This document shows positions 981 to 55,374 of a stretch of 60,000 bases of DNA, piece after piece; within the stretch, counting starts at the first letter, position 1; every line of letters starts with the position of its first letter. The notes under the pieces are model-generated. The model saw only the letters and a list, made by a program, of their open reading frames with translations. It was not told the origin of the DNA and ran no database searches. A program made the position numbers and the translations under genes. Source of the stretch: Callorhinchus milii (taxonomy: Eukaryota); contig NW_024704742.1 of NCBI RefSeq assembly GCF_018977255.1, positions 137,890,001 through 137,950,000 of the forward strand, written 5' to 3'.

Positions 981-1334
981 TCAACTGCTGCAGATGCTGT
1001 TGATGGACACCATGGCTGGATCGACCAATCCCATCTCCTCGTGCTCGTTAACACACAGCTGGTACCCGCAGCCTCGTCGCTTGTTCTGGAGAGGAACCAC
1101 GGAGCTGGGGGCGGGGCCTCTGCCAGGGCGGGGCCTGGGGGGCAGCAGGAAGCCCACGCTGCCCGCGATCAGCATATGCCAGATACTGTGGATGTAGAAA
1201 TAGTTCTCCTCCGTCTCCACAAAAGTGTAGAGAGCCACGGCGGACATGGCGATCACCGTGCCGGGAAACAGGTAGAAAACCCAGCGCTTCCACGTGGGCG
1301 GGTAACAGCGGCGCCTGCGGATCGTGCGGATTGT
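981..1334 (-). CDS. TMEM8B: TMEM8B terminal coding exon (to TGA)
   Basis: atccag|ACA; encodes [25 protein letters not shown]...[24 protein letters not shown]...SINSICSS*. Confidence 0.94.
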   Translation of the reverse strand, partial: TIRTIRRRRCYPPTWKRWVFYLFPGTVIAMSAVALYTFVETEENYFYIHSIWHMLIAGSVGFLLPPRPRPGRGPAPSSVVPLQNKRRGCGYQLCVNEHEEMGLVDPAMVSINSICSS

Positions 1335-10300: not shown

Positions 10301-13300
10301 AGACGGGCCTTGAAGGAGGCCAGGGAGGAGATGAGGCGAAGGGACTGTGCAATGGAGTTCCAAAGGGTGGGGAGTAGAGAGGCTGAAGGCATGAAGGCTG
10401 ATGGTGGGTTGGGCCGGGCGGGGGACGTGGAGCAGGCCGGAGCCTGCTGAGCAGAGGGAGCGGACAGGTCGGTATAGAAACAAGACGGAAATCACCTCCC
10501 TCCGTTCAGAGCCTGTCACGCCGAAACCCCACCCGGCGCATTACAGGGTACTATAGTTTGGTGTAGTGACTGTGCATTTGTGAGGCAAACAAACACAACA
10601 GTCCACCATTCAAAAGACGCGATCTCCAACAATGCAGCGCTCTCCCCCACTGGAGCTCTCTACTCTAACCCCATTCCCTGCTCTCTCCCCATCGTGTCTA
10701 TGCTGGTGCTCCCTCCCCACTGGAGCTCTCAGCATTATCATCATCAACAACAACTTGCATTTAAATAGTGTCCCTCACACAGGGCAGCGTCCCAGAGCAC
10801 TTGACAGTGGCAGCGCACGATGCTGAGCCAGAGGGTGGGGGGAAGTGACCGTAAGCACGGTTGAATAGGAAAATCTTCAGACGCGACCTGAAGATGGGGA
10901 AGGAAGGAGCAAGGCGGAGGGATAGAGGAAGAGTGTTCCTGAGCTTCAGGTTGTAGTGGCTGAAAGCGCGGCCACCAATGGTGGAATGGAGGGCACGAGG
11001 GACATGCAGGAGGCCAGAGCCAGTCGAGCGGAGGCAGCAGGTAGTGGGTTGGGTGGGGTTAAGCAGGTCAGAGAGGTAGGGAGGTGCCAGGCATGAAGAG
11101 ATTTGAAAAAAAGTGTGAGAATCTTGAAATCGATCCATTTGGCGATAGGGAACCAGTGGAGCTTGGCTAGCACTGGTGTGATGGGGCTGCAAAGTTAGTG
11201 CGGGTAAGTATGGGGGCAGCAGAGTTTTGGATCAAATGGATCCTGAGTATGGTGGAGTTGGGGAGACCGAGTCAGGAGGTGACGAAGGTATGAGCAAGAA
11301 TTTTGGCTGCATCTGGGGTAAGGTGCAGTTAGAGGCGGGCAATATGGCGGAGGTGGAGAAAGGCGGTGCTGGTCTGGGACCAAATGTGGAGAAGGAAGTA
11401 CAGCTGTGGGTCGAACTGGAAGCCAAGGTTGCGGACTGGTACAGTAATTCTGGGGGATACGCAGGGGAGGTGCAGGAGGTCAGCCGCCAGTTGTGATCAG
11501 GCTGTCACTGATGAATATCACAAGATCTAAAGATCTCCTGACCTCCACCCATTGAGGCTCAAAACCGCAATGATCGGATGTAAAATAACCAACTGGTGAC
11601 TATTCTCCTTGGCAGGACCTGGAACTTTCTTCAGTTGAATGTCAACAAGACCGAGGCTTTCTTGATTGGCTCCTGTCAGCGTTTCCACACCTCAGGCATT
11701 GACAGCAACAACAACACAACAACAACAACAACAAGATTCCATTTATAGAGCGCCTTTCACGTCGGGAGGACGTCCCAAGGCGCTGCACAGTTGGGTTATG
11801 ACCCGAGCAGGGGGGAATGGTCAGGGCGAGGGGAGGGAAGGGAGGGAGTGGAGGGGAGGGGGGGGGGGGGGGGGGGGGAAGGGGGGGGGGGGGGGGGGGG
11901 GCGAGGAGGGGGTAGAGAGTCGAGAGGGGAGCTGAAGGCACAGTCAAAGAGAAAGGTCTTGAGACCGGTCTTGAAGGAGGAAAGGGAGGAGGCGGCGAAG
12001 GCACTGGGGATAGAGTTCCAGAGCCTCGGGGCTGAGAGGCTGAAGGCCACCGATGGTCAGGCGGTTGGGGCGGGGGATGTGGAGCAGACCGGAGCCAGAG
12101 GAACGGAGGGTACGGGCAGGTAGGTAGGGGGATAGTAGGTCGGAGAGGTAGGAGGACGAGGCCGTGAATGGCCTTGTAGGTGAGGATGAGGATCTTGAAA
12201 TCGATCCTCTGGGGGATGGGGAGCCAGTGGGGGTGAGCCGAGGGGTGGGAGTGATGTGGTCGCCGGTGTCCTGGTGCGGGACAGTACACGAGCTGCAGAG
12301 TTCTGAATGACCTGCCATGTGGAGGGAGGGCCGGTAAGGCCAGCGAGGAGAGAGTTCCCATAGTCCAGCCTTGAGGTGATAAAGGTGTGGACCAGAGTTT
12401 CAGCCGCGTGGGGGGTGAGGTAGTGCCGTAGTCTGGCGACATTCCGGAGGTGATGGAAGGCGGTACCAGTTGTGGCGCGGATATGAGGACTCGGACACCC
12501 TCCATGGTTTCACATTCCATCTCACTAAAGCCAGTCCGGAACTTTGGGGTCTTGTTTGACCCTCAACTATCCTTTCTACTCCACATCTGCGCCATGACCC
12601 GCTCTCCCTTCCCCCACCTCCGCAACAATGCCCGGCTCCGCCATTGCCTCACACCCCAGGTCACCGAAACCCTCAGACACACATTCATAACATCCAGGCT
12701 CAACTATGCAAACTCCTTGTTTGTTGGCCTCCCCAACTCCTCCCTCAATAGGCTGCAAATCATCCAGAACTCTGCAGCCCATGTCCTCTCCTGCACCAGG
12801 CTCTGTGACCCTATCAACCCCATCCTCGCCCGACTCCACTGGCTTCCCATCACACTGAGGATACAGTTCAAGATCCTGGCCCTCACCTTCAAAGCCCTCC
12901 ATAGACTTGCTTCCACCTGCCTCTGAGACTTCCTAACCCCCTACCATCCTGCTCGCTGTCTCCGCTCAGCAGGCACCGGCCTGCTTCACGTCCCCCACCT
13001 CGCCCGTCCCACAATTGGTGGGCGGGCATTCTTCCACTCTGCTCCCACCACCTGGAACTCCATCCAGTAGTCCCTCTGCCTCGCCCCCTCCCTTGCCTCC
13101 TTCAAGACCTATCTCAAGACCCTCCTCTTCGACCATGCTTTCAATCACCCTGCTTCCCCCCCTATCTCCACCCTCCCCAATTCCGAACCCCAGCTCGGGT
13201 CCGAAACACTGACTCTCCAGCGCCTTGGGACGTCCCCTGACGTGAAAGGCACTTTACGCATGTAATTTTGTTGTTGTTGTTGGAAGAGCAGACCAGTCAC

Positions 13301-16300
13301 TGGGGGCAGGGAATTCTCCCACTCAGCTCCTGGTAACCCTGCAGCCAAAGCCCTAACCGGTAGGGTGGTCCTAGCTGGTCAAGCAGCAGGAAAGCTTGTC
13401 AGACAGTGATATCAAGGATAAGCTGTGTGGTTTTAGCTGGTAAGACTCCAGCAGTTACCCCAACACACACTCTGGGGTCCCCCCAAGCCTTGGCTCTTGC
13501 CAACTGCACCTAATACTCTGCGGAATTAGGTAAAGAGGCTGCGCTTCTCCAGCGAGTGAGAGAGAGGGAGAGAATGTTTTCCATTCCAATAATCAACCTC
13601 TAGGATTTCTATGTGTAGGTGGGATATATGGAATTCTCAATTTGATTTGCAGAGCCTTAAGCAACGGTGAAGGGTTTCTGCATGTATCAGACACCCGGCT
13701 GACAAAAAAGAATCCTTTCTATCCCTCTTCACACAATGAGAACTACCTCCTCTTCTCCAGAGATAACACTGTCACTTGAAGGTCCATCACTAACCTGACC
13801 TCCCGCTAGCGCTGCTCAGTTTGCTGTCCTCAGCACATTGTCTGACGTGAAGCCTCTTCCACCAGGGAGTCGATGAATAATGTCGTACCTGCCCACGCTC
13901 TTATTCTGTCAGCCTGGACTGTGAGCTCAGCGTCCCCAAAGTGGGCTTGAACCCACATCCTACGGACATGAAGGGCCAGAAGGCCTCACTCTGAGGATTC
14001 CTGGGTATAGTTTGCGGTTCGCCAAAGGACCTCCTAGGGTTAATTTACGCCAGACGTTTCCCTCTGGTGAGGCTGCGAGCGAGTGTGAAAAATATAGCAC
14101 CATGCGTGTGACACAGGCGTCTGTGAGTCAGTATCTGCGCTCAGTCTGATCCCTTCCTGAATCACGAGTAATTCAATAATCCACCAATCTGTCACACCCG
14201 CATTTACATATCTTTCCAGATGCCATAATGCCAACAGTTGGACTTGATTTATAAATATTTACTCATAAAAGCTCTCGTCCATCATGCAATGCCTCCCTCT
14301 ATCCCTTCCACTTTCACTCATTTACTCCCTCGGCCCCACTCCCTCTCTCACTCCATCCCTCCCTCACTCTCTCACCAGTGCAGTGGTGGCAGCTTTTATT
14401 AAAGCTCCTGTGAGCCATCTATTCTGTTGCCTGACTCCGCTCTCCTCCTCTCCTCTGTCTCTAACGCTGTGATATCAGCTGTGTCCTCACCAGACACAGA
14501 GGGAGGCCATTCAGCCCAGCTGGCCTGTGCTGCCACTCTTTGTTTAGCCAATTTAATTTTAAAAAAGTTCTCCATAAAAAATATACCGCAGAGCAATTAA
14601 ATTACATTCGTATAGTGCTTTCACGTCGGGAGGACGTCCCAGGACAGTGAAGGATGTGCACCCGAGCTGGCGGTGGGATGAGGAATGGTGGAGAGGGAGA
14701 GCGAAGAAGAGAATGGGGTGAAGGGGTGGGGGAGTTCCCTACCTTTGATGTGGACCCCAATGCGGAAGTGCACCTGGAGATTGGGGAGGGAGCGCTCCAC
14801 CAGGATGTAGTACCATTGCTGCCAGTGGGGGGGGCTGTGGTGGAGCTGGCAGGTGGGGAGGGCGGAGCAGTCAGCGTGGGAGGAGTTGTGGAGAGGTGGG
14901 GCTCTGGCTCGGATCTTCAGGGAGATGGGGCATGCCCCCACCGTCCGGTTCCTGCTCCGGCAGCCGATCAGCTGCACCGTCACTGCAGAGGTATAACTGG
15001 GCACAAACACCCTGGACCACAACACAAGCCATCACCAACTCCCACATCATCACAACAACAACAACAACAAATAATAACATACAACACTTGCACGTGATAG
15101 AGCGCCTTATCACTTCGTTGAGACGTCTCGAAGCACTTCACAGAAAATACCTCTGTAGTTTCTGTGTGACTTGTGGGCGAAACGCGGCAGCTAATAGCCC
15201 ACAGCAGTGATCTACAAACACTCGTGGATTGAGTGACCAATTTTTATTGAAGGATTATTATCCCTGGAAAGTGATCCACCAATCAATTAGGTTCCTACTT
15301 ATGGCTGGGTAACCAAGAGGTGTGTGGGGTAAGGAACTGGCCTCAGGTTTTATTTGGGGGATTGTTGGCCAGGACAGCAGGATTGCACCATGAGATCTTT
15401 AACATCCGTCTCAACAGGCAGAGGCAACCTGGGTTCAATGTGTCACCTCATTGGAACGTTGTCTTAGACTATGTGATTCCAAGTCCCTTCGTGGGGTCTT
15501 GAACCCACAACCTTCTGACTCAGATACGAGAGAGTTACCAGGCTGTGCCAGGCCAATAAGAATAACGCTTACATTTGATACAGCGCCTGTACAGCATTGC
15601 AGTGACTGCGTATTTTGTGGGCGTACGCGGCAGCTCATTTATGCTGAGCGCCGGAGAGCGCAGGACCTGGCGGTGTAAAATGGCCGCCATTCGGTCGCGG
15701 CGCTGGCGTCACTTACTTGTACAGAGCCGAGCGGTTGTGAGCGGGGATTAACTGGTCAATGACGTAACCGGGATACAGCACGGGAATCCCGATCAGTCGC
15801 TGCACAATCAGCTGTGGCTGGAACAGGTACTGACATTCCTCATAGAGGCCCTGTGACGGGGAGAGCGGCGGAGGGGCATGGGGAGGGGGGAGCAGAGAGA
15901 GAAGTGGGAGCGGCAGAGATAGGATGGGGGAGGGGAGGAGCAGAGGGAGAAGGAGGATGGGTAGAGGGAGACGTGGGGGAGGTACAGAGAGAAGGCGGAG
16001 GGATAGAGGTAGGCGCGGGGAGGGCCAGGGAGAGGGATGGGGCAGAGAGAGGGAGGCGGAGAGAGAAGGATGGGCAGAGAGAGAGAGGGGGGCAGAGGGA
16101 GGGAGGGGCAGAGGGAGGAAGGGGCAGAGAGTGGGAGGGGTAGGGGAAAGACATTAGTGATGCCAACTCAAACTCCACCACCCACATCCTCACCGGCCCC
16201 AAACTCCATCAGCCACTCAACAACAACAACAACAACAAGATTCCATTTATTGAGCGCCTTTCATGTCGGGAGGACGTCCCAAGGCGCTGCACAGTTGGGT

Positions 16301-18899
16301 CAGGACCCGAGCATTGGGGGAAATGGTCAGGGTGAGGGGAGGGGAAGGAGCGAGGAGGGGGGAAATGGTCAGGGTGAGGGGAGGGAAGGGAGGGAGCGAG
16401 GAGGGGGCAGAGAGTCGAGAGGAGAGCTGAAGGCACGGTCAAAGAGAAAGGTCTTGAGACCTGACCGGTCTTGCCGGACTCAGTCAGGAAGGGAGACTCC
16501 GGACCTCTGCCCTCCGCCTCGCAACCCTTTTGTCTGTATTTAAATCACAGTCATCATCACCTCCCCACCCTCTCCCTCTCTCGGACAGACCTCACCAACG
16601 TTAAGTGCTCCGAGACACTAACCCACACAAAGGGCCTCGTACACGGTAAAACTCACCTAAGTCGTACCACTTGGGACCATAACATTGAACATGATTTACG
16701 TGAAGTCCGAGCTGCAGGCAAACTGTATAAATCGTCTAAAATCCAACTTAATCAATAATCTAATCGATCAGTAATTCCCAGTAGCCGGTAAATGCACCTG
16801 CAGCGACGGGTCAAGACTACATTTCCCGCGATTGAATGCGTCTCGTCCCGTCGCCGCTTTACACTTCCCGGCAAGTGTTGGAATCGCATTGAAACGCTGG
16901 CAATGAAGTTCTTCTGCGCTTGCGTCGACGGATCAATACTACATTGCTGTAGACCACACTGCTGTGCGCAATCGGCTGCCGCGTTTCGCCCACAAAACAT
17001 GCAGTCAATTCACTTTACAACATATTCTGTGAAGCGCATTGAGACGCCTCGAAGACGTGATAAAGGCGCTATATCAAATACTAGGATTATTATTACATTT
17101 CCCACATTCAATGCAGTGGTAACGGTTGGGAGTGGGGGGGGGGGGGAGATGTGTACCGATCGCTAGCTCGTTCATGTTAATTATCTGGTTCTTCCTTACA
17201 GTTGGATGAACAGAGGCGTGTGGAGTAAGGAAACCTACCCAGTGTTTCACCCTGCCGGGAATCAAACCCAGGTCCTCTCGCTTGGGAGGCGAGTGCTCGA
17301 ACCACTACACTACGGCACTCTGATAAAAATAATAATAATCCTTGCATTCGATATATCGCCTTATCACGTCACCAAGACGTCTCACAGCGCTTCACAGAAT
17401 ATATTGTAAAGTCAATCGACTGTGTGTTTGGTGGGCGAAACGCGGCAGCAAATTGTGCACAGCAGCGTCCCACAAACAGTGGTGGATTGAGTGATTATTA
17501 TGGGATTATTACCCCCGGGAAAGCTATCTGCCAAACGACTAACAACCGGGTTAATAGGGAATTTGAGGGAATTGGGAAAGAGCAGGGGATTGGGGTTAGG
17601 ACAGAGGCTTGACTGGAGGAGTGAACACGTGCCTTGACTGAGATCTTGCCCTCATCCTTGGGCAGGTGGGCAGCCAGGAACCAGTCCCCGGGCAGGGGGC
17701 TGCTCACGTTGAAGACCCCGGTGGTGCGGTTGGGCAGAGTCCAGGTCAGGGTGACGGTGAAGGAGCTGGGGATGACAGTATCTTGCGGGAATCGGGTGTG
17801 GAGAGGGTTAATTACCGGCGGAGCCCCAGCCCGGTAATACCTGGAGACAGAGAGAGACAGACGGAGGGAGAGTGAGAAAGACACAGAGAGAGAGAGAGAA
17901 AGAGACAGAGAGTGAGAGAGACAGAAAGTGATAGAGACAGAGAGAGACAGAAAGAGAGAGAGAGAGAGAAAGAGAGAAAATGAAAGAGACAAAGAGAGAG
18001 AAAGAGACAGAGAGTGAGAGAGACAGAGAGAGACAAAGAGAGAGAGAGAGACAGAGACAGACAAAGAGAGAGAAAGAGAGAGAGAAAGTGGCAGAGACAA
18101 AGAATTAGGTGGAAATGAACCAACAACAACAAATGACATTGACACAGCGCGTTTCCCGTCGGAGGCCATCCCAAGGCACTGGACAGTCAAGGCTTTGAGC
18201 CCGAGCTGGGGTTGGGATCAGACAGGGATGGGAGCTGTGGGGGTGGAGGAGGGAAGATGACTGACAACGTGGTTGAAGAGGAAGGTCTTGAGAAAGACCT
18301 TCAAGGAGGCAAGGGAGGGAGCAAGGTGGAGGGGCTCTGGGATAGTGTTCCGATTGCGCGGTGGGGCCTGGCGGGGGACGTGGAGCAGACCAGTATCTGC
18401 TGAACGGAGGGAAAGATTGGTAAGGATTTTAGTAGGTCGCAGAGCTGGGGAGGAGCAAGACCGTGGAGGGCTTTGAAAGCGAGGACAAGGATCTTAAACT
18501 CTATCCTCTGGGAGACGGGGAGCCAGTGAAGCCGGGCGAGGATGGAGGTGATGGGAGCTTAGTGGGATCAAGGCAGGGAGGTTCCCTGACTGAGGTCTTT
18601 ATATCGCGGAGAAGAGGGGGATGTACTCACACTATACTGTGGGTGGGGGGGAGAGTGGGGGGGGTTACTCACACTATACTGTGGGCGGGGGGGAAGGGGG
18701 GTTACTCACACGGTGATGTCCCGGTCGGGACAGGTGTCCCCAAAGTTGCCCCCCTGCTCCTTGAAGGTGATGAGGTTCCAGACGGCCACCACTGTATCTT
18801 CGGGCATGTGGAAATGAAAGAGCTCCACACTGGCAAAGGAGGTGAAGGGGTTCAGCTTCCGCGGCGTCCGCGTAAAGTAGTCCGTGACGAAGAGACCGT
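981..18899 (-). CDS. TMEM8B: Transmembrane protein 8B (TMEM8/CREST family), 5'-incomplete multi-exon gene. Coding exons 18710-18899, 17633-17840, 15717-15850, 14743-15011, 9730-10124, 7339-7435, 4890-5013, 4135-4277, 3751-3929, 3306-3452, 2349-2465, 981-1334
   Basis: 12 exons join in one frame (2357 nt) with matching intron phases. Peptides [32 protein letters not shown] and [25 protein letters not shown] match recalled TMEM8B rather than PGAP6/TMEM8A. An EGF-like Cys motif is followed by a 7TM region with CREST motifs FFSTFYHACD and HSIWH. Confidence 0.93.
1397..1725 (-). mobile_element. Young tRNA-derived SINE with an L2-type tail and (ATT)n end
   Basis: Head resembles a tRNA with A/B boxes (GTAGCTCAGTGGTTAGAGC...GTTCAATTCC). 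Near-identical to copies at ~22300, ~27110 and ~33725. Confidence 0.85.
2349..2465 (-). CDS. TMEM8B: TMEM8B coding exon
   Basis: ctcag|ATC...TGG|gtaagc; encodes [39 protein letters not shown]. Confidence 0.94.
2890..3270. repeat. 30-bp minisatellite, about 12 copies
   Basis: Unit GGGTCAGCACTGGCTGAGGGCAGGGTTCAG. Confidence 0.95.
3306..3452 (-). CDS. TMEM8B: TMEM8B coding exon
   Basis: cag|TTT...CAG|gtggg; encodes [49 protein letters not shown]. Confidence 0.94.
3751..3929 (-). CDS. TMEM8B: TMEM8B coding exon, first transmembrane helices
   Basis: tacag|GG...ACG|gtcagt; encodes WNGWGCTDN...[13 protein letters not shown]...[14 protein letters not shown]. Confidence 0.94.
4135..4277 (-). CDS. 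TMEM8B: TMEM8B coding exon, EGF-like domain
   Basis: cccag|G...G|gtgtga; encodes [47 protein letters not shown]. Confidence 0.93.
4283..4645. repeat. GA-rich tandem repeat directly upstream of a TMEM8B acceptor
   Basis: Unit approximately GAGACAGAGGAGAGTGAGC. Confidence 0.9.
4890..5013 (-). CDS. TMEM8B: TMEM8B coding exon
   Basis: ttccag|AA...GG|gtaagg; encodes [41 protein letters not shown]. Confidence 0.92.
5606..6860 (-). mobile_element. L2-clade LINE, degenerate RT and C-terminal region
   Basis: Frameshifted peptides [51 protein letters not shown] and [14 protein letters not shown]. Confidence 0.9.
7339..7435 (-). CDS. TMEM8B: TMEM8B coding exon, absent from the ORF track
   Basis: ttcag|TCC...G|gtaagt; encodes [32 protein letters not shown]. 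Confidence 0.9.
8067..8365 (-). mobile_element. Same tRNA-derived SINE, inserted into a Deu-domain SINE
   Basis: Same body and tail. The host SINE sequence stops at ~8066 and resumes at ~8373. Confidence 0.8.
8878..9260 (-). mobile_element. Older subfamily of the tRNA-derived SINE; related copies near 5045-5410, 17200-17550, 20610-20980 and 48780-49070
   Basis: Same head and tail with a longer, diverged middle. Confidence 0.75.
9730..10124 (-). CDS. TMEM8B: TMEM8B coding exon
   Basis: ttacag|AC...ACA|gtgagt; encodes CSKP...NMPQSFG...[27 protein letters not shown]...[17 protein letters not shown]. Confidence 0.93.
10130..11430 (-). mobile_element. Two L2 LINE 3' fragments (~10130-10480 and ~10745-11430)
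   Basis: LHWFPI..IDFKIL and LWNSI...SFKARLKT peptides; (TTG)n tails. Confidence 0.8.
11705..12490 (-). mobile_element. 5'-truncated L2 LINE
   Basis: [24 protein letters not shown] and [24 protein letters not shown]; (TTG)n tail. Confidence 0.85.
12520..13282 (+). mobile_element. 5'-truncated L2 LINE
   Basis: [14 protein letters not shown]...SRLNYANSL...LHWLPI..RIQFKI; ends GTGAAAGGCACT...(TTG)n. Confidence 0.85.
14743..15011 (-). CDS. TMEM8B: TMEM8B coding exon
   Basis: ccag|G...G|gtaggg; encodes [14 protein letters not shown]...[10 protein letters not shown]...[13 protein letters not shown]...GVHIK. Confidence 0.9.
15717..15850 (-). CDS. TMEM8B: TMEM8B coding exon, absent from the ORF track
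   Basis: cacag|GGC...AA|gtaagt; encodes [45 protein letters not shown]; phases 0/2 fit both neighbours. Confidence 0.9.
16650..16935. promoter_or_regulatory. Candidate intronic promoter or alternative first exon in TMEM8B
   Basis: CpG-enriched unique segment, ZNF143-type ACTACATTTCCC at 16816-16827, and a consensus minus-strand donor AG|GTGAGT at 16657/16656. Confidence 0.35.
17633..17840 (-). CDS. TMEM8B: TMEM8B coding exon ending at a GC donor
   Basis: ctccag|G; encodes [18 protein letters not shown]...[22 protein letters not shown]; donor AAG|gcacgt. Confidence 0.88.
18120..18560 (-). mobile_element. L2 LINE 3' fragment; similar fragments near 19440-19950, 21330-21680, 43845-44150 (+), 57155-57455 and 58700-59280
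   Basis: Shared L2 3' sequence and (TTG)n tail. Confidence 0.75.
18710..18899 (-). CDS. TMEM8B: TMEM8B coding exon, most 5' one identified (phase 1 in, phase 2 out)
   Basis: ttcacag|AC...GT|gtgagt; encodes [63 protein letters not shown]. Confidence 0.92.
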
Positions 18900-18924
18900 C
18901 TGTGAACAACAAGCACAGGGGTCA

Positions 18925-19410
18925 CCCTCACACATACTCACCCTCACACATACACACACACCGTCACACAAACACGCACACATACACACCCTCACACATA
19001 CACACCCCTCACACACACACACACCCTCACACATACACAACCTCACACATGCCCTCAAACATACACACACACCCTCACACATACATAACCTCACACACAC
19101 ACACACCCTCACACACACACACACACTCACACACAAACCAAACATACACACACCCTCACACATACATAACCTCACTCACAGCCTCACACATGCACACACA
19201 CACACACCCTCACACACAGCCTCACAAGCACAACCTCACCCTCACACATACAACCTCACTCACACCCTCACACATGCACACCCTCACACATACACGTACC
19301 CTCGCACACACTCACAAACACAATCTCACCCTCACACACAACCTCACTCACACCCTCACCCTCCCACATACATACACACACACACACACAACCTCACAAA
19401 CACACAGCCT
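18925..19410. repeat. CA-rich low-complexity tract
   Basis: CCCTCACACA-type repeats. Confidence 0.9.
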
Positions 19411-22299
19411 CATAGTAAATAGGAGAGCATTCACAGGCTACAACAACAAATTACATTGACACAGCGCCTTTCACGTCAGCAGTGCACCCCAAGGCGCAAC
19501 CTGCACACAAATTGGGGTTTGGGATCAGGAGGGTGGAGGGCAAGGGGAGTGGAGGAGGGAAGATGACCGAAGGGGCGGTCGAAGAGGAAGGTCTTGAGAT
19601 GGGGCTTGTTTGAGGCAGGGGAGAAGCAAGGTGAAGGGACTGTGGGATGGAGTTTCAGAGGGTGGGGGCACAGAGGCTGAAGACCTGACCCCCGATGGTG
19701 GGGCACGTGGAGCAACCAGAGCTGCTGAGCGGAGGGAGCAGACGGGTTTGATATGGGGTTATTAGGTCACAGAGGTAGGGGGGAGCGAGGCCATGGAGGG
19801 GTTTGAAGACGAGGACGAGGATTTTGAACTGTATCCTCTGGAGGATGGGGAGCCAGTGGAGCCGGGCGAGGGTGGGGGCGATGGGCAGGAGCGGGAGAGG
19901 ACACGAGCTGCGGAGCTCCAAACAATCTGCAGGTTGTGGGGGGAAGAGTTGGAAATGCCAATAAGCAGAGAGTCAGAGACAGACTCGGTGGGTGTGGTGG
20001 GGGAAACTGGAGTTGGTAACCAGTGTTAGTGATAGTAACCAGAGCTAAAGTTAGTAACTAGGTTAGTAGGCATAGTTAATAGGAGGAGTTAGTAATCAAG
20101 TTAGCAAACAGGGTTAGTAACTGTAACTGTAGTTAGTAAACAGCTCACACCCTGATCTCTGCCATCCTTTACTATTCACCATCCACACCTCGATCATTTC
20201 ATTAATAATATGACAATAATCCTCCCATTGATACAGTTTCTAGAGCATCAAACATCTCAAAGTGTCTCACAGGGCCAGCTGCCAGTGTAGTGACTGTGTG
20301 TTCTTTAGCCAAACACTGCAGCCAGAGGGGACGTCCCAGAGGTGTGTAACAGTGTGAATGGGATTGAAAAGTAAACCCAGATCATCGCTGTCAGATACAC
20401 TGAGACAGTAGAACAAGAGGCCACAGGGTTAGAGTTTAGTGTAAAGGGTCATTTTAGGACCGACACCAGGAAGTGTTTCTTTACCCAGAGGGTAATTAAT
20501 GAGTAGAACAGGGTTAGCAGGANGGGGGGTTGAGGCCGGGTCACTGGGACTGGTTTATAAAGCAGCTCAATGCTATGATGGGGAGACAGTTGGGTGGGGG
20601 TTCTGGGGGGATAATAATAATAATACTTCCATTTGATGTCGCGCCTTATATCATTGAGACATCTCAACGTGCTTCACAGAATATATTGTAAAGTGCAGTG
20701 ACTATATTTTGTGAGCAAAACGCAGCAGTCAATTGCACACAGCAGCGCCCCACAAAATATCGTGGATTGAGTGACCATTGTTTTTTTGGAGAGATTATCA
20801 TTATCACGGAAAGTGATCCTCCAATCCAATTCGACCAATAACTATTTCCTAGTTACTGCTAAATAAACAGAGGCACATGGAGTAAGAAAACTGTCCAAGG
20901 TTTTGTCTGACCGGGAATCAAACCCCCGGTCCTCTCGCTTGCGAGGCGAGTGCTCTAATCACTATACTACGGGACTCTACATCTATGAGATCAGAGGCCT
21001 TCTTCGTCCAGACCAATCTATGATCTAATGATAAAGTGCTGCTGTCTACAGTTGATGTACTGAGGGATTTATTGACTTGGTCGGGGTTCAGTAATGTTTA
21101 CAGTAAATGCTTCCACAACCCTGAGTCACTGTGTTGAGAAATGTCACATTATCTGCAGTAATACAGTGGGATAGTAACCTTTTATCTCTGTGTATGTCTC
21201 ACACTCACTGACTCGTACATTATCAGAAACCACAAGCCAGCTATAACGCTCCCCCTACCCACACCCAACTTAAAATGGTGTCCTGGCCAACAACCCCCAA
21301 ATAAAATGGTCACTTACTCAAGAACAACCTACATTTATACAGACCCCCGTCACGCAGAGAAGCATCTCGGAGCGCTTAATAATGGTGGAGGAAGTGACCA
21401 TAGGTATGGTAAAAGAGGAAGTTGATCTGAAAATGGAGGAGGGGGCAAGGCGGTGGGTTTGAGGGAGAGAGTTTTGTGGCCCAGTGGCTGAATGGGCAAC
21501 CACCGAAGGTGGAGCGGAGAGGACAAGAGACAAGCAGGAGGCCGGAGCCAGTCGAGCGGAGGCAGCGGGTTTTGGATTGGGGAGTAAGCAGGTCAGAGAG
21601 GTGCCAGGGCATCAACAGATTTGTAGACGAGTTTAAGGCTCTTCAAGCCGCATCCGTTCTGTGACAGGGAACAAGTGGAGCCTGACAAGGACTGGGGTGA
21701 TTGGGGAGTGGAGTTCAGTGTGAATTTATACACAGCAATGTCCCACAATGTGAAATTGGCTGCCATGTTTTTCCCCCAAAATACACAGTCACTACTCTTT
21801 ACAGTACATCCTGGGAAGCGTTCAAAGACGTCTAAACGTTTGTGGGGACACTGCCTCCACAATGACAGCAACAACAACTTGCACTTATAGAGCGCCCTCC
21901 ACACAGGGTAGCATCTCAGAGCGCTTAACAGTGGGCGGAGGCTGACTCCGAGCCAGGGAGGGGAGGGCAACGACAAAACAAATTGTATTTATGTAGCGCC
22001 TTGGATATCCTAAGTGAAGGGTTTGCACGTGAGGAGGGGTGGAGGGCAATAGGGGTGGAGGTAGGAGGATACCATAGGGGAACGTCTTGAGACAGGCCTT
22101 GAAGGAGGCGAGGGAGGGTGTGAGGCAGAGGTGCTCTGGGATGGAGATCCAAAGGGTCGGAGTAGAGAGGCTGAAGCCGAGAGAAGCCGAGCGAGGATGA
22201 GGGTGATGGGGTCACCGAGCTCAGTGTGGGAGAGGAAACAGAGTTCTGGATAGTCCGCAGGTTTTGTAAGGGAGAGTTGGAGAGTCCAGTTCTGCTCCC

Positions 22300-22630
22300 T
22301 AATAATAATAATAATAATAATAATCCGTGCATTTGATATAGCGCTTTTCACGTCGGGAGGACATCCCAAAGCGCTTCACAGAACACACTGTAAAGTGAAT
22401 TGACTGTATATTTGTGGGCGAACGCGGCAGCCAATTGCGCACAGCGATGTCCCACACACAGCCGTAGATTGAAAATGACCAATTTATTATTGTTTTTGGT
22501 TTTGGAGGGATTATTATTAGGCTCTGTGTGGAGTAAGGAAACTTGCCCAAGGTTTCGCCCTCTGCCTGGGATTAAACTCAGGTCTCTCGCTTGCAAAGCG
22601 AGTGCTCTAACCACTGAGCTACAGGACTCA
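22300..22630 (-). mobile_element. Young tRNA-derived SINE, full length
   Basis: Near-identical to the copy at 1397-1725. Confidence 0.85.
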
Positions 22631-23559
22631 ACTGCCGATGAGCCAGCCTGGAATACTGCGGACCCACCTGGCTCAGGAACCAGATACCACGACCGCCACA
22701 GAGGACTGGCTCGATTCCGGCAGTTTGTTGCCAAACGGAGTTGGTTCAGTCCCAGAGACCCTGCTTACCTTCCCCAGGAGGACACTCACAACCTGGCCAA
22801 GGAGGGTTTAAATAATGAAGGCAGGAGCGAGGATTATAGCCCTGAGGAACCACCGCTTAATACCGTGCGGGGGCGGGAGAAGACAAAGCGAAGTTGCTGG
22901 GATAGGGAGGAGTGAAGGCAGGATGAGCCTTGAAGGAAAATGAGGAGGAGAGACAGGGTGGGTGGATGGAGCCAATTTGGTCAGAGTAATGTCTTGCAGA
23001 CAGCCATGACGTGAGTGATTAATTTTATCCGGGGCATTGTCAGCCGGGGCTCCAGGGAAAAGAAACTTCTCTTTTACAATCGCGCTGTGGGATCTTTAAC
23101 ATCCACCTGAACACGGGCACAGACGGGGAGTGAGGTTTAACATCTCATCCAAAGGACACAGCATCTCTGGCATTTACTTCATGGCTGTTTGTGGGACATG
23201 GCTGTCCGCATTCACCTTATAAAATACACAGTCACTACACCCTACAGTAAATCCCGTGAAGGACATCCTCCTGAGTTGAAAGTTGCTGTGCTAAATGTAA
23301 GGATTATTAATAATTATTATTATAATAATGATAAACTCCCTTCTCTTAGTGCCGTGGGATCTTTAACTTCCACCTGAACAGCAAAGACGGGAACTCGGTT
23401 TAAGGTCTCATCGGAAAGTCGGCGTCTCTGACAATGCATCGCGCGCTCCCCCCCCCCCCCCCCCCACCACCCCAGCACAACACTGCAGCGTTAGCCTGGA
23501 CTGTGAGCTCACATTAAGGGAAATAGCCAATCATCAGAATGAGGCAATGCTGGGAGTGT

Positions 23560-35309: not shown

Positions 35310-37570
35310 GAAATATAGACAGACATAGAGACAGAGAGAGACACACAGAGAAACAGGGACAGACAAAGACACACAGAGAGAGGTACAGAGAGGGAGAGAC
35401 ACAGAGAGACATAGAGAGAGAGAGACAGACAGGGGGGGGACAGAGAGAGAGAGGGACAGGGAGAGAGTTAGAGACAGAGAAAGAGACACAGAGAGACAGA
35501 CAGAGAGAGATAGAGAGGGGACCGAGAGAGAGAGTGTGACAGAGAGAGTGACAGAGAGAGAGGAGACAGAGAGAGTGTGTGACAGAGAGAGTGACAGAGA
35601 GAGAGGAGACAGAGAGAGTGTGTGACAGAGAGGGAGACAGAGAGTGTGTGTGACAGAGAGAGTGACAGAGAGAGAGGAGACAGAGAGAGTGTGTGACAGA
35701 GAGAGTGACAGAGAGTGTGTGAGAGAGGGAGACAGAGAGAGTGTGTGACAGAGAGAGTGACAGAGAGAGAGGGAGACAGACACAGAGAGAGGGGGACAGA
35801 GAGAGAGTGTGTGACAGAGAGAGTGACAGAGAGAGAGGGAGACAGAGAGAGTGTGTGACAGAGAGAGTGTGTGACAGAGAGAGTGACAGAGAAAGAGGGG
35901 GACAGAGAGAGAGTGTGTGACAGAGAGAGTGACAGAGAGAGAGAGGAGACAGAGAGAGTGTGTGACAGAGAGAGTGACAGAGAGAGAGGGGACAGAGAGA
36001 GAGGGGGACAGAGAGAGAGTGTGACAGAGAGAGTGACAGAGACAGAGAGGGAGACAGACAGAGAGAGAGGGGGACAGAGAGAGAGTGTGTGACAGAGAGA
36101 GTGACAGAGAGAGACAAATCCACCCCCAGTCCCTGTGTCTGAGCTCAGTCCAGTTCAGCACCACCAGAGGTGGACAGTTCCCAGGTGTCGGCAGAGAGAG
36201 CGAGGAGAGGAGGGAGGGGGAGAGAGGGAGGGGGAGAGAGGGAGGGGAGAGGAGAGAGGGGGAGAGGAGAGAGGGAGGGGGAGAGAGGGAGAGGAGAGAG
36301 GGAGGGGGAGAGGGGGAGGGGGAGAGAGAGAGAGAGGGGGGGAGAGAGGGAGGGGGAGAGAGGGAGGGAGAGAGGGAGAGGAGAGAGGGGGAGAGAGGGA
36401 GAGGAGAGAGGGAGGTGAGGGGGAGAGGAGGGAGGGGGAGAGAGGGAGGGGGAGAGAGGGAGGGGGAGAGAGGGAGGGGAGAGGAGGAGGGGGAGAGGAG
36501 GGGAGGGGGGAGGGGGAGAGAGGGAGGGGGAGAGGGGAGGAGAGGGGGAGAGAGGGGAGAGAGGGGGGGAGAGAGGGAGGGGGAGAGAGGAGGGGGGAGA
36601 GGGAGGGGGAGAGGGAGGGGGAGAGGGAGAGGGAGAGGGGGGGGGAGAGGAGGGAGAGAGGGGGAGAGAGGGAGGGGGAGAGGAGGGGAGGGGGAAGAGG
36701 GAGGGGAGAGGGGGAGAGAGGGAGGGGGAGAGAGGGAGGGGGAGAGGGGGAGAGAGGGAGGGGGAGAGGAGGGGGAGAGAGGGAGAGGGAGAGGGAGAGA
36801 GGGATGGGGAGAGGAGGGAGGGGAGAGGAGGGAGGGGGCCAGAGAGGGGGGGGAAGGGAGGGAAGGGAGAGGGAGAGGAGAGAGGGGGAGGGAGGGGAGG
36901 GGAGAGAGGAGGGGGCCAGAGAGGGAGGGGAAGGGAGAGAGGGGGAGAGGGAGAGAGAGAGGGAGGGGGAGAGAGGGAAGGGAGAGGAGAGAAGGGGAGA
37001 GGAGGGAGGGGGAGAGGAGGGAGGGGGAGAGGAGAGAGGGGGAGGGAGGGAGAGAGAGAGAGAGAGGGGCAGGTGAGGGAAAGGAAGCAGAGGAGGGAGC
37101 GAGAGAGAGAGAGGAAGCAGGGGAGGGAGGGAGAGAGGGAGGCAGAGTGAAGGAATCAGCGAGTGGGAGGTAAGAGGGCAGGGAGAAGGAATGAGGGAGA
37201 TAGAGAAAATGAGAGGAAGGAAGAAAGGTAACGAGAGAGACGGAGGAACCAGATGGAGGGAGAGGGAAATTAAAGATTTGAGGCAACAACACGGAATGAG
37301 AGAAGGGAAGAAGAAGAGATAGAAGGAATGTGAGGGGGAAGAGAGAAGTAAGACAGACAGAATAAAGGTGAATGAAAGAAATGAAGGAGAGAGGGGGGTA
37401 ATGAAAGAGGGGAAAAAACAGTGGGGGGGGGGGGAGAAAGAGTACGAGGCGGAACAAAATAGAGGGACAGTGAGGAAGAGCCACAGAGCAAGGGAATGAG
37501 TCAGAAGAGACAAGTGAGATGGAGAGAGAGTCAACAAGATGAGAAGAGGAAGAGAGGGGGAGTGAGAGAG
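35310..37570. repeat. GA-rich low-complexity region including a ~900-bp almost pure purine tract (36190-37070)
   Basis: GACAGAGAGAGT repeats followed by GGAGAGAGGG repeats. Confidence 0.95.
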
Positions 37571-38096
37571 AGGGGAGTAAGTTGTGGTCAACCTCATGAA
37601 TTTAAGAAGCTTCACACACAGTTACTCAGACAGTAACAACTCAGACCTCTCCTGATCCCAACTCGGGTCCAGATCCCTGACTCAGCAGCACCTTGGACAT
37701 CCTCCCAACATGAAAGGCGCTGTACAAATTTAGTTTGTTGTTCGTTGGAAACCCGTTGGTTTTACACTCCCTCCGAGTGTCCACACCTCAACACCTCCAT
37801 TCCCTCTATCACGTAGGCAACAAACAACTCATTTCGCATAATCCACACCTCTGTCTCCAACCCTGACCTGGGAGTGTGGACTTACACTGTCTCTTATCTT
37901 CTCTCCCTCATTCTTTGTGTATTAGGGTTAGAGACACAGTAAAGCTCCTTCCACGTCCACACTCCCAGGTCAGTGAGTGTTACTCATAGGAACAGGAGTA
38001 GGCCATTCAGCGACTCAAGCCTGTTGCACTATTCTGTTTAATCATGACTGATATCTACCTGACTCTCAGTTCTGTCCCCCCACACCCGGTGCTCAC

Positions 38097-38365
38097 CATA
38101 TGCTGGACGGCAGAGACAATCTGAGCGAAGAGCTTGCGTGCGAGGTCCTCGGGGAGGGGTCCCTCGGTGCTGACGCTGGTGAACAACTCACCCCCGGCAG
38201 CATACTCCAGCACCAGGTGCAGTCTGGTGAGGGTCTCTATCACCTCATACAGACGGATGATGTGGGGATGGTGCAGCCGCTCCATACTGGCAATCTCACG
38301 GGACAGCAACCGCTCTGTCTTCTGGTCCAGCTTACTCTTGTCCAGGATCTTAATGGCCACTTTCT
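38097..38365 (-). CDS. NIM1K: NIM1K second coding exon (VAIK lysine to helix E)
   Basis: ctcag|AG...ATG|gtgagc; 269 nt; phase 1 in, phase 0 out. Confidence 0.93.
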
Positions 38366-40741
38366 CTGAGGGAGGGAACGAGGGAGAGGGAGATAATATT
38401 AGAGAGAACTTGAGAGAAAAAGTGGAGGAAATGAGACCGAGAAAGGGGGCAGAGTGAGAGAGCGATAGAGGGAACGAGAGAAGGAACAGAGGAAGAGGGT
38501 ACGTGAGAAGAAAGGAAGGAGAGGGGAAACGTGAGGGGGAGAGCAATACAGAGACAATACGAATGTGAAAGGAGGACGGAAAATTTTATTTTTTTAGCAT
38601 TCTCAAAGGTTTCATAGGAAGTTAGTCGTATGTAGTGACTATTCTGTAGGCAAACTAATTTGCACACAACAGTGTACCACAAACAGCCATTGAAGTGATT
38701 AACCAATTTCATCTGGGGAATTGTCCGACAGCTTCGCAGGAATTCTTTAGTTGGCCGAGTGCCTTTCACACGCGGAAACTCATCACAGTGATCAACTGGG
38801 CGTCTGACACATGAAACCCCATCACTGATCAGCCAAGGTGTCTGACACACTCGGAAACCCATCACCATGCTTAAGTCTCCAAGCCAGACTGAGATTTCCA
38901 CATACGTACACACGGAATTATCCCTGTATCTGGAGTGGAATGCACACTCTCCCTGGAGGAATGCACTCTGTCCACCTAATTCAGGAGAATATTAGGCGCA
39001 AGGTTGGAAAGGAGCCAGGACTTGGGGACAACAACAACTTGCATTTATAAAAAGTGCCTCATGTAGGGTAGCGTCCCAGAGCCAGGGACCCCAGAATGTG
39101 CGTTAGGGTAACTGCTAAATAATAATAATCATACTTGCATTTCGTATAGCGTTTGTCACGTCTTCTCGACATCTCAAAGCGCTTCACAGAATATGCTGTA
39201 AAGTGAATTGACTGTATATTTGTGGGTGAACGCGGCAGCCAATTGCGCACAGCAATGTCCCACAAACAGTCGTGGGTTGAAAATGACCAATTTATTATTG
39301 TTTCTTTGGTTTTGGAGGTATTATTAGGCTCTGTGTGGAGTGAGGAAACTTGCCCGAGGTTTCGCCCTTACTCTTTAATGTTGTTTTTCTCAAGCATTTA
39401 TGGTTCACAAGTTTGGTTCAGACCAAGAGACCCATCAGCCCATTTGATCAAACCATTGGACTTAATAGCCATTTGTGGTAAAAGTGAACTGACTGTATAT
39501 TTGTGGGTGAAACCCATCAGCCAATTGCACACAGCAGTGTTCCATAAACAGTCGTGGATTGAAGTGACCAATTTATTATCTTTTTTCTTGAGGGATTATT
39601 ATTAGACGTGTGGAGTAAGGAAACTTCCCCAAGGTTTCTCCCTGCCTGGAATCAAACCCAGGTGTCTCGCTTGTGAGCTACAGGACTCCACGATAGTGCC
39701 ATGGGATCTTTTAACGTCCAACTGAACAGCGGCACTGTGCTCACCCCCCCCCCCCCCCCCCCCCACCCACCCACCACAGCGCTGCACTGGAGAGTCAGCC
39801 TGGATTGTGAGCTCAGAGTCCCCAACGTGGGGCTCGAACCCACAACCCACAAGCTCCTGATTCGGAGGTGAGAGCCTGAGGGGGGGGTGAGTGTTGCCAG
39901 GGGGTGGGCAATGTTGCTGGGGGTGTGGGGAGTGTTACCGGGGGTTGAGGGGTGTTCTGGGGGATGGGTAGTGTTGGCGGAGGGAGGGGAGTGTTGCCGG
40001 GGACTGGGGTGTGTTCCGGGGGGGGGGGCGGTGTTACCGGGAGCCTGTACCTTTGGTCAGCACGTGGATGCCGAGTTTGACCTGGGAGAAGTTGCCGCTG
40101 CCGATCTGCCCACGGAGCCGGTAAAACCCGATCCTGCGGCCGAGGGTCACCTCCTTTATGGTCCTCTCATCGTGTGTCACATCGTGGTTCAGCTTCTCCA
40201 GGGGGGTCAGTGTGCGGGACCTCCCGTCCCCCTCACACCCCTCCTCTTTGCCTTGCCCCTCACATCCCACTCCCTTGCCCTGCCCTTCACAACCCTCCCT
40301 CTTGCCCTGCCCCTCACAACCCTCTCCCTTGCCTTGCCCCTTACAACCCTCCCCCTCCTTGCCCTGCCTCTCGTACCCCACCTTCTGCCCCTTACACCCC
40401 TCCCAGTTGCCCTGTCCTTCGCACCCCATCTCCTGCCCCTTACTCCCCTCCCCCTTTCCCTGCCCCTCACAACCCTCTCCCTTACCCTGCCCCTCGCAAT
40501 CCTCCCCCTTGCCCTGCCCTTCACAACCCACCCCCTTGCCCTGCCGCTCACAACCCTCCCTGTCCTTGCCTTGCCCCTCACAACCCTCCCCCTCTTTGCC
40601 CTGCCCCTCATAACTCTCCCCCTCCTTGCCCTGCCCCTCACATCCCTTCCCCCGACCATGCTCCTCCACACTCTCCTGTCGGCCCCACCGGGTGTGGTGC
40701 TGGGGCCCTGGGCAGCCTCCGCTCACGTCCACCGCCATCAT
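38097..40741 (-). CDS. NIM1K: NIM1 serine/threonine kinase (AMPK-related), 3'-incomplete. Coding exons 40051-40741 and 38097-38365
   Basis: N-terminus MMAVDVSGG..HTRWGRQESVE, then LTPLEKL..EVTLGRRIGFYRLRGQIGSGNFSQVKLGIHVLTK|EKVAIKILDKSKLDQKTERLLSREIASMERLHHP...IVSAVQHM. Matches recalled NIM1K. Adjacent to HMGCS1 as in mammals. Confidence 0.92.
40051..40741 (-). CDS. NIM1K: NIM1K first coding exon (ATG to Gly-rich loop), includes an in-frame tandem repeat
   Basis: ATG at 40741; donor AAAG|gtacag at 40050 (phase 1); 691 nt open. Confidence 0.9.
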
Positions 40742-45019: not shown

Positions 45020-46924
45020 AGGGGGGGGACAGTGTGGGGGGGACAGTGTGGGGGAGAGGAGGGGTGACAGTGTGTGGGGGAGAGGGGGGGGAGAGGGGGG
45101 GGGACAGTGTGGGGGGGAGGGGGGGGACAGTGTGGGAGGGGGGGGACAGTGTGTGGGGGAGAGGGGGGGGGTGTGGGAGGGGGGGACAGTGTGTGGGAGA
45201 GGGGGGTGACAGTGTGGGGGGGTGACAGTGTGGGGGGAGTATGGGGGGGGAGGGGGGGGGGACAGTGTGGGGGGGACAGTGTGGGGGAGAGGGGGGTGAC
45301 AGTGTGTGGGGGAGAGGGGGGGGAGAGGGGGACAGTGTGGGGGAGGGGGGGGGGGGGACAGTGTGGGGGAGAGGGGGGGACAGTGTGTGGGGGGAGAGGG
45401 GGGGGACAGTGTGGGGGGAGGGGGGGGACAGTGTGTGGGGGGAGAGGGGGGTGACAGTGTGGGGGGTGACAGTGTGGGGGGAGTGTGGGGGGGGGGGGGG
45501 GGAACAGTGTGGGGGGGGACAGTGTGGGGAGAGGGGGGTGTGACAGTGTGGGGGAGAGGGGGCGTGACAGGTGGGGTGCAGTGTGGGGGAGAGGGGGGTG
45601 ACAGTCGTGGGGGGGAGAGGGGGGGTGACAGTGTGGGGGGGGAGAGGGGGGGTGACAGTGTGTGGGGGGAGAGGGGGGGACAGTGTGGGGGGAGAGGGGG
45701 GTGACAGTGTGGGGGGGGAGAGGGGGGGTGACAGTGTGGGGGAGAGGGAGGGGGGGTGACAGTGTAGGGGGGGAGAGGGGGGGGAGAGGGGGGGGAGAGG
45801 GGGTGAACAGTGGGGGGGGAGAGGGGGGGTGACAGTGTAGGGGGGGGGGGTGACAGTGTGGAGGGGGGTGAGTTGGAGGGGGGGTGACAGTGTGGGGGGG
45901 GTAGAAGTGGGGATTGTGTGAGTGTGGGGGGGAGGGGGGTGACAGTGGGGGGGGGAGANNNNNNNNNNNNNNNNNNNNNNNNNGGGGGGTGACAGTGTGG
46001 GGGGGAGAGGGGGGGGTGACAGTGTGTGGGGGGGAGAGGGGGGTGACAGTGTGTGGGGGAGAGGGGGGTGACAGTGTGGGGGGGGGAGGGGGTGACAGTG
46101 TGTGGGGAGAGGGGGGTGACACTGTGTGGGGGAGAGGAGGCGGGGTGACAGTGTAGGGGCGGAGGGGGGTTGACAGTTGGGGGGAGAGGGTGAGTGGGGG
46201 GGGGAGAGGGGGGGTGACAGTGTAGGGGGGGAGGGGGGGTGACAGTGTGGGGGGAGAGGGGGGTGCCAGTGTGGGGAGGGTGGGGTGACAGTGTGGGGGG
46301 GGTCAGTCACTATGTGTGTGTGTGACTGTGTTGTGTGTGTGGGGGGGGGGGGAGGGGGGGTGACAGTGTGGGGGGGGGGGGGGTCAGTCACTGTGTGTGT
46401 GTGAGACTGTGTGTGTGTGTGTGTGACTGTGTGTGTGTGGGGGGGTCAGTCATGTGTGTGTGGGGGGGGTCGGTCACTGTGTGTGTGTGTGTGACTGGTG
46501 GCCTGTGTATGTGTGTGTGACTGGCGGCCTGTGTGTGTGTGTGACTGTGTGGGGGGGGGGGGGTCAGTCACTGTGTGTGTGTGTGTGTGTGTGACTGGCG
46601 GCTGTGTGTGTGTGTGTGTGTGTGACTGGCGGCCTATGTGTGTGTGACTGGTGGCCTGTGTATGTGTGTGTGACTGGCGGCCTGTGTATGTGTGTGTGTG
46701 ACTGTGTGGGGGGGTGGGGTCAGTCACTGTGTGTGTGTGTGTGTGTGTGTAACTGGCGGCCTGTGTGTGTGTGTGTGTGTGTAACTGGCGCCTGTGTGTG
46801 TGTGTGTGTGTGTGTGTGTGACTGGCGGCCTGTGTGTGTGTGTGTGTGTGTGTGACTGGCGGCCTGTGTGTGTGTGTGTGTGTGTGACTGGCGGCCTGTG
46901 TGTGTGTGTGTGTGTGACTGGCGG

Positions 46925-50438: not shown

Positions 50439-50522
50439 TCAATGCTCCCCGTTGCTGACGCTGGCGGTGCCCGATGCTGAGCCGGGAATCCTGGGCATCT
50501 TCTTGGCCGGGCTCGGGACGTG
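50439..50522 (-). CDS. HMGCS1: HMGCS1 terminal coding exon, absent from the ORF track
   Basis: tcacag|CAC; encodes [27 protein letters not shown]. Confidence 0.92.
   Translation of the reverse strand, partial: HVPSPAKKMPRIPGSASGTASVSNGEH

Positions 50523-52712: not shown

Positions 52713-52745
<33 letters not shown>

Positions 52746-55294: not shown

Positions 55295-55374
<80 letters not shown>

What the first reader, a model, noticed from the sequence alone, without database searches (positions are those of the whole stretch)
18900..38096. NIM1K's last exon and TMEM8B's first exon both appear missing from the same interval
Seen: NIM1K stops at ...VSAVQHM|gtgagc (38097). I found no HRDLKAEN/DFG/CGSPPYAAPE exon on either strand anywhere in the window, and no ORF in the track encodes one. 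TMEM8B begins at an internal phase-1 exon (18899) with no convincing ATG plus signal-peptide exon upstream. Known: vertebrate NIM1K has one large terminal exon carrying the catalytic loop and C-lobe, and TMEM8 proteins have a hydrophobic leader before GLF. Inference: one lost segment would remove exactly these two adjacent exons. Assembly drop-out is the most likely cause. Alternatives are a real deletion leaving a half-kinase, or TMEM8B nested in the last NIM1K intron with the exon lying left of the window.
Basis: partly seen in the sequence, partly recalled or inferred. Interest (0 to 1): 0.7.

Follow-up and report, generated by a model that had tools for sequence, protein, structure and literature searches.

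The report
Two exons missing from an assembly
In this elephant-shark genome assembly the last exon of the kinase gene NIM1K and the first exon of the next gene, TMEM8B, cannot be found, most likely because one repeat-rich stretch of DNA was left out when the genome was assembled and not because the animal lost it.

Summary
NIM1K stops at its exon-3 donor (38097). Its terminal exon, which carries the catalytic loop, C-lobe and CaaX tail, is not in the window, the 150 kb beside it, or the rest of the assembly, either as small pieces or as a decayed remnant. TMEM8B is complete except for its short signal-peptide exon. The nested-gene alternative is excluded for assembled DNA.

An unmarked assembly drop-out is the best reading (about 0.78). 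The kept NIM1K half is an open 320-codon frame, and TMEM8B is conserved and spliced. The 19-kb interval is about 68% repeat, and three 25-N gaps lie within 90 kb. In one probable RNA run the contig graph forks exactly at the NIM1K donor, as it does at a spliced TMEM8B donor.

The missing exons were never recovered: the forking partner is not shown, the NIM1K contigs seen are unspliced, and the kept half evolves somewhat fast. A real deletion stays open (about 0.13, fixed or on one haplotype). Low interest.

The parts
40051..40741 (-). NIM1K first coding exon: ATG at 40741, in-frame GCEGQGK repeat array (about 40229-40653), glycine-rich loop
   Evidence: 231 open codons
38097..38365 (-). NIM1K second coding exon (VAIK lysine, alphaC, hinge, to VSAVQHM); phase-0 GT donor at 38096
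   Evidence: Pfam PF00069 positions 26-114 of 263
38055..38096 (-). 13-codon intron read-through and stop used by the truncated 229-aa database model P0005
18900..38096 (.). Interval where the NIM1K terminal exon and TMEM8B exon 1 are expected; neither found; about 68% repeat; no non-repeat CpG island
35327..37142 (.). Long CT/AG low-complexity arrays with a unique island of about 100 bp; candidate collapse site, starting about 950 bp after the donor (paralog intron: 836 bp)
   Evidence: its role as the site is inferred, not shown
29313..29525 (.). 41-bp minisatellite of the same family as the array beside the 25-N gap at G000:C1:137868596; second candidate site
   Evidence: role inferred
25715..26400 (.). 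30-bp minisatellite, 22.6 copies; candidate site
   Evidence: role inferred
20523..20523 (.). Single N beside a G run; probably an ambiguous base, possibly a join
18710..18899 (-). TMEM8B first assembled exon (phase-1 acceptor, GLFVTDY...DITV)
   Evidence: spliced to the next exon in runs X2 and X7
1008..17840 (-). Remaining TMEM8B exons, complete to the C-terminus
45959..45983 (.). 25-N assembly gap upstream of NIM1K, inside a minisatellite
50440..58614 (-). HMG-CoA synthase (HMGCS1; gene name recalled), both Pfam domains fully covered: an intact neighbour used as control

Best explanation
The assembly lacks the NIM1K terminal exon and any recognisable TMEM8B first exon, most likely because one stretch between them was collapsed or skipped at a repeat during assembly, so the animal probably has an ordinary full-length NIM1K and an ordinary TMEM8B with its leader. 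Shown: both exons are absent from the assembled DNA, the flanking coding sequence is intact, and TMEM8B is spliced. Inferred: the cause, the single lost segment, its place (the CT arrays at 35327-37142 are my first guess) and the existence of the exons in the animal.
For: (1) Run X2 (RNA by the tool's guess): the contig over NIM1K exon 3 ends exactly at 38097 and the intron contig overlaps it by the last 30 exon bases, 38097-38126 (table 8). That is a fork at the donor base. The same 30-base pattern marks the spliced TMEM8B donor in the same run, where the main exon contig is also not shown. A simple SNP bubble would break these contigs twice; each runs on unbroken. Orthologous exon 4 starts with His, so a fork at this base is what a normal splice gives. 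(2) The NIM1K half is open over 320 codons with both splice sites. Its repeat units are 21, 27 or 30 nt, all in frame. The one exon variant seen in X6 and X8 (38268) is synonymous (read from the sequence). (3) TMEM8B is otherwise complete, 82% identical to a shark over 734 columns, like lungfish at 82.8%, and spliced in X2 and X7, so a first exon and promoter should exist. The interval has no leader exon and no non-repeat CpG island. (4) No decayed remnant of exon 4. (5) Three 25-N gaps within 90 kb and three single Ns in 210 kb; interval 68% repeat. (6) Missing promoters and first exons are a documented assembly error (PMC9516821, passages).
Against: No sequence of either missing exon was obtained. 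The forking partner in X2 is not shown, so it could be TMEM8B exon 2 or a cryptic exon. None of the 4 runs laid shows a spliced NIM1K junction: X2, X6 and X8 (the last by only 10 bases) run through the donor into the intron, X2 and X6 also run through the acceptor, and X9 does not cover the exon. No multi-base gap is marked inside the interval. The kept half differs at 6 of 82 conserved columns (81 references: 0-5, though they define the columns) and has a long branch, 0.44 against a median of 0.059. It is faster than sharks in 6 of 6 relative-rate tests. TMEM8B is also faster in 4 of 4, but by a smaller ratio. A complete paralog on C21 could buffer a real loss. No full-length elephant-shark NIM1K was among the 120 listed of 372 hits, and none of the 117 newly listed C-terminal hits fell with cartilaginous fish.
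Confidence: 0.78

Rival explanations
1. A real, fixed deletion removed the NIM1K terminal exon and the TMEM8B promoter and leader exon. This would leave a catalytically dead N-lobe that ends 13 codons into the intron, buffered by the C21 paralog, and a TMEM8B made from another start.
For: Clean absence with no marked gap. Unspliced NIM1K contigs in X2, X6 and X8. Faster evolution of the kept half. Complete paralog. A 58-nt-shorter, frameshifting TMEM8B junction in X2. A 472-aa human TMEM8B is listed in a review (PMC13562381, passage), shorter than the roughly 800-aa forms.
Against: The fork at the donor in X2. No stop or frameshift in 320 codons. The TMEM8B N-terminal exon is 87-92% identical to sharks and rays, and the gene is spliced. 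The in-frame ATG in that exon is Val in the two database models of this species (P0238, P0239), so it is not a fixed new start. The neighbour shares the rate increase.
Confidence: 0.08
2. Two separate causes: NIM1K exon 4 is missing (dropped out or lost), while TMEM8B has a divergent or non-coding first exon inside the interval that my scans cannot recognise.
For: Leaders are short and variable: 17 of 53 database leaders score below the interval's best candidate. The second lay of contigs gave no cover at the 18899 acceptor.
Against: Five shark and ray orthologs have a 25-29 aa hydrophobic leader ending at this exon border. The interval's candidates lie in repeats with poor donors.
Confidence: 0.08
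3. The deletion is real, but only on the haplotype that the assembler chose in the sequenced animal; the species has intact genes.
For: It would explain both the seamless sequence and the fork in another run.
Against: An allele that disables two conserved genes should be rare (inference). No second-haplotype contig was found (weak, 39 of 54,789 candidates scored).
Confidence: 0.05
4. TMEM8B is nested in the last NIM1K intron, or exon 4 lies elsewhere in the assembly.
For: None found.
Against: Not in 100 kb to the left or 50 kb to the right, nor in the whole assembly.
Confidence: 0.01

Closest known systems
XP_042187965.1, serine/threonine-protein kinase NIM1-like, Callorhinchus milii (P0005, 229 aa)
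   Same: 100% identical over the exon-3 peptide; ends in the same intron read-through.
   Different: It starts at an internal Met of the repeat; the frame is open from an upstream ATG at 40741 that aligns weakly with the shark N-terminus. The database already carries the truncation without explaining it.
Shark and ray NIM1K (e.g. P0024 Heptranchias, P0042 Pristiophorus; 429-461 aa)
   Same: 73-80% identity over the kept half; the window copy falls in their clade (94/87 support, not starred). NIM1K and TMEM8B records share a contig length in Heptranchias, Leucoraja, Rhinatrema, Pogona and Takifugu rubripes, which suggests old linkage.
   Different: All 11 have the C-terminal half with HRD, DFG, APE and a CaaX-type end; the window copy lacks it in the assembly and has a repeat insertion of about 140 aa.
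False gene and exon losses in genome assemblies (PMC9516821)
   Same: Missing 5' exon and promoter in repeat- and GC-rich sequence, with intact neighbours.
   Different: That study deals with older Sanger and short-read assemblies, often with marked gaps; here no multi-base gap is marked in the interval, and a large terminal exon is missing too.
Second NIM1K copy at G000:C21:297485-300143
   Same: Same three coding exons and phases; complete, with an 836-bp last intron.
   Different: 64% identical to the window copy; groups with the second NIM1-like copies of teleosts (SH-aLRT 96, quick tree), so it is an old paralog and not the displaced exon.

Membership tests
NIM1K (AMPK-related kinase) | N-lobe: glycine-rich loop, VAIK lysine, alphaC glutamate; orthology | tested here: met
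NIM1K (AMPK-related kinase) | HRD, DFG, activation segment and APE in the terminal exon | tested here: not met
   absent from the assembly; presence in the animal unresolved
NIM1K (AMPK-related kinase) | C-terminal prenylation motif needed for ciliary entry (PMC9857354, passages) | tested here: not met
   lies in the missing exon (orthologs)
NIM1K (AMPK-related kinase) | Spliced full-length mRNA | tested here: inconclusive
   fork at the donor in X2, partner not shown; other contigs unspliced
TMEM8B / NGX6 (TMEM8 subfamily) | Extracellular domain, EGF-like segment and membrane domain exons | tested here: met
TMEM8B / NGX6 (TMEM8 subfamily) | Hydrophobic leader in a first exon ending in phase 1 | tested here: not met
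   a divergent leader cannot be excluded
Assembly drop-out (false exon loss) | Missing sequence present in raw reads or transcripts | tested here: inconclusive
   only assembled contigs could be laid; indirect fork
Assembly drop-out (false exon loss) | Read clipping or depth anomaly at a defined site | not testable with these tools
   no raw long reads were listed
Unitary pseudogene / truncated kinase | Disabling changes or decay in the remaining exons | tested here: not met
   no stop or frameshift, splice sites kept; rate raised

The most novel reading that the evidence does not exclude
Elephant shark has really deleted the catalytic half of NIM1K together with the TMEM8B promoter and leader, yet keeps an open, transcribed N-lobe fused to a 15-unit Cys/Gly repeat as a non-catalytic protein, and runs TMEM8B from a new 5' end, possibly spliced from NIM1K's own exon 3.
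Probability: 0.08. Interest if true: 0.5.

Novelty: not a real feature. Interest (0 to 1): 0.12.

Why it matters
If the best reading holds, this is a curation point. The 229-aa database NIM1-like model and any leaderless TMEM8B model of this species are incomplete, and gene-loss screens should not count NIM1K as lost in chimaeras. If the deletion were real, it would be a natural knockout of a little-studied ciliary kinase, with a retained half-kinase and a paralog that may compensate.

Tried and rejected
Split micro-exons or a decayed exon 4: none. Exon 4 beside the window or on another contig: none. A second-haplotype contig over 28500-38400: only repeat hits, weak search. The single N at 20523 as a gap: unresolved; a repeat runs through another single N nearby, so such Ns can be ambiguous bases. 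Recovering TMEM8B exon 1 from loose ends at 18899: no run covered the acceptor, and X9 and X10 gave nothing; a filter leaves contigs out, so this is no evidence. No listed holder is on record as RNA; the RNA labels are guesses. Contig depth of TMEM8B (105-168) against NIM1K (about 18) in X2 was not used as evidence, since the tool says depth cannot rank genes. A chimaera C-terminal fragment in the protein collection: none placed with cartilaginous fish among 117 newly listed hits of 548 found. A larger multi-gene block missing: NPR2 (fused to TMEM8B in bird model P0159) and a CREB3-type bZIP gene (fused to NIM1K in carp model P0117; CREB3 name recalled) are both present at C1:128.96-129.02 Mb and C1:130.16 Mb. 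One search had an off-by-one exon border; its window-copy results were discarded and redone. Literature: NIM1K+TMEM8B 0 papers, HMGCS1+NIM1K+synteny 0, NIM1K+gene loss 1 unrelated listing, species+missing exon 13 found, 10 listed, none opened.

Full report
Setting. The window is G000:C1:137,890,001-137,950,000, about 1.25 Mb from the end of a 139.2-Mb contig. The exon-3 peptide is 100% identical to a record named NIM1-like of Callorhinchus milii, 229 aa (P0005). On the minus strand lie an HMG-CoA synthase gene, complete by both Pfam domains, then NIM1K, then TMEM8B.

Observation, NIM1K. Two coding exons, 40741-40051 and 38365-38097, join into an open frame of 320 codons that ends VSAVQHM|gtgagc. 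The 11 shark and ray orthologs continue for about 250 aa with HRD, DFG, APE and a CaaX-type end (one search shows 9 of them; all 11 entered the tree). That part is found neither by motif search, nor by tblastn on the window or on 210 kb, nor by a 92-sequence profile. The profile's best score there is 4.3 bits; the paralog exon scores 349, and 7 of 8 fifteen-residue pieces of its kinase core score 10-22. Whole-assembly searches return only a complete paralog on C21 at 52-57% identity, plus other kinases. The paralog groups with teleost second copies. The window copy falls among shark and ray NIM1K.

Observation, TMEM8B. All exons from the phase-1 acceptor at 18899 to the C-terminus are present. 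Five shark and ray orthologs have a 25-29 aa hydrophobic leader before this point. Among 295 ATG-to-GT candidates in the interval, the 40 best-ranked are repeat-derived or have weak donors. A leader profile peaks at 16.8 there, against 22 or more for 33 of 53 real leaders. Seventeen database leaders score lower than that peak, so a divergent exon is not excluded.

RNA contigs. Twenty of 24 listed runs hold part of the exon-3 region, and none is on record as RNA. I laid six of them in two calls. At TMEM8B, X2 and X7 join exon 2 to exon 3. In X2, two contigs leave the donor with a 30-31-base overlap, and the main exon contig is not shown. At NIM1K, X2 has one contig ending exactly at 38097 and another running from 38126 into the intron. 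In a graph of 31-base words this is a fork at the first intron base, or at 38127, where I see no splice site. It is the only break between these two X2 contigs over 720 bases, and it falls on the donor. A SNP bubble would break the contigs twice. Against this: the partner is unknown, X2 shows no fork at the exon-3 acceptor, X6 and X8 run through the donor unspliced, and X9 does not cover the exon.

Selection on what remains. There is no stop or frameshift. The 15 repeat units in the first coding exon are 21, 27 or 30 nt long (one false anchor in that output splits a 27+21 pair). Spacings in two non-coding arrays are multiples of three in only 13 of 40 and 8 of 24 cases. This is weak evidence, because the basic unit is already 27 nt. 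The kept half departs from 6 of 82 conserved columns, mostly conservatively, more than any of 81 references. In relative-rate tests it is faster than sharks (6 of 6, p<0.05) but not rays (0 of 4). TMEM8B shows the same pattern (4 of 4; 0 of 4) with smaller ratios; I did not test that difference. So there is no decay, and the acceleration is partly regional.

Assembly context. The interval is about 68% repeat, with no non-repeat CpG island. It holds a 1.8-kb CT/AG tract starting about 950 bp after the donor, two minisatellites and a single N. The paralog's last intron is 836 bp, so the CT tract is where exon 4 would be expected. Three 25-N gaps lie within 90 kb, two of them in or beside minisatellites. 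As context only: a published long-read assembly of this species was built with FALCON, HiRise and PBJelly gap-filling and had 90.3% complete, 4.3% partial and the rest missing BUSCO genes (PMC8302630; passages of the main text and supplement, file 4 not searched). PMC12952989 gives 93.1% (passages). Missing promoters and first exons are a known assembly error (PMC9516821, passages). That a 25-N run marks a gap-filler's unresolved join is recalled.

Mechanism. Most likely, reads or contigs were joined across two similar low-complexity tracts, and the DNA between them was dropped without an N. That DNA would hold NIM1K exon 4 and 3' UTR, the intergenic spacer, and the TMEM8B promoter and exon 1 (0.78). 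Rivals: fixed deletion 0.08, separate causes 0.08, deletion haplotype 0.05, exon elsewhere 0.01. Human NIM1K needs its C-terminal prenylation to enter cilia (PMC9857354, passages), so a real half-protein would lack both catalysis and targeting.

Comparison and novelty. The truncation is already in the database as P0005. Paper searches found nothing on this locus (listings only). The scan's notes held nothing near it. Two unchecked notes report real exon losses elsewhere in this genome, one with a decayed exon and in-frame skipping; they keep the real-loss rival open but differ from this case.

Noticed in passing
window 40229-40653 (-): About 15 in-frame units of a GCEGQGK(G/E)EG repeat (21-30 nt) lengthen the NIM1K N-terminus by about 140 aa, with a Cys in most units. 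No Pfam match; absent from the shark and ray orthologs seen.
   Followed up: partly
window 40741 (-): The likely true NIM1K start (MMAVDVSGG) lies upstream of the start used by database model P0005; the frame is open.
   Followed up: yes
window 18710/17782 (-): Run X2 has a second TMEM8B exon 2-3 junction that lacks 58 nt of exon 3 and shifts the frame. The assembled DNA has AA, not AG, before the joining base, so it may reflect a sequence variant or a deletion allele in that run.
   Followed up: partly
window 18807 (-): TMEM8B exon 2 reads FHFHMPED here but FHFHVPED in two database models of the same species: a probable Met/Val polymorphism.
   Followed up: partly
window 37700-38420: X2 and X6 contigs cover both NIM1K introns unspliced; the source (pre-mRNA, read-through from the upstream gene, antisense RNA or DNA) is unexplained.
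   Followed up: no
G000:C21:297485-300143 (-): Complete, fast-evolving second NIM1K gene with a CaaX-type end (KICSFM); groups with teleost second copies.
   Followed up: partly
G000:C1:137,790,000-138,000,000: Neighbours read from ORFs (names recalled, not tested): Ig-domain exons, an SLC5A6-like transporter, a TESK1-like kinase, TMEM8B, NIM1K, HMGCS1, a ZNF131-like gene. From memory, human NIM1K and HMGCS1 are tail to tail; here they are in tandem, so the order differs.
   Followed up: no
P0117, P0159, P0003: Database models of carp (NIM1K N-half fused to a bZIP gene), nightjar (NPR2 fused to TMEM8B exon 2) and sterlet (scrambled NIM1K halves) break at these same exon borders, so such faults recur in other assemblies or annotations.
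   Followed up: partly
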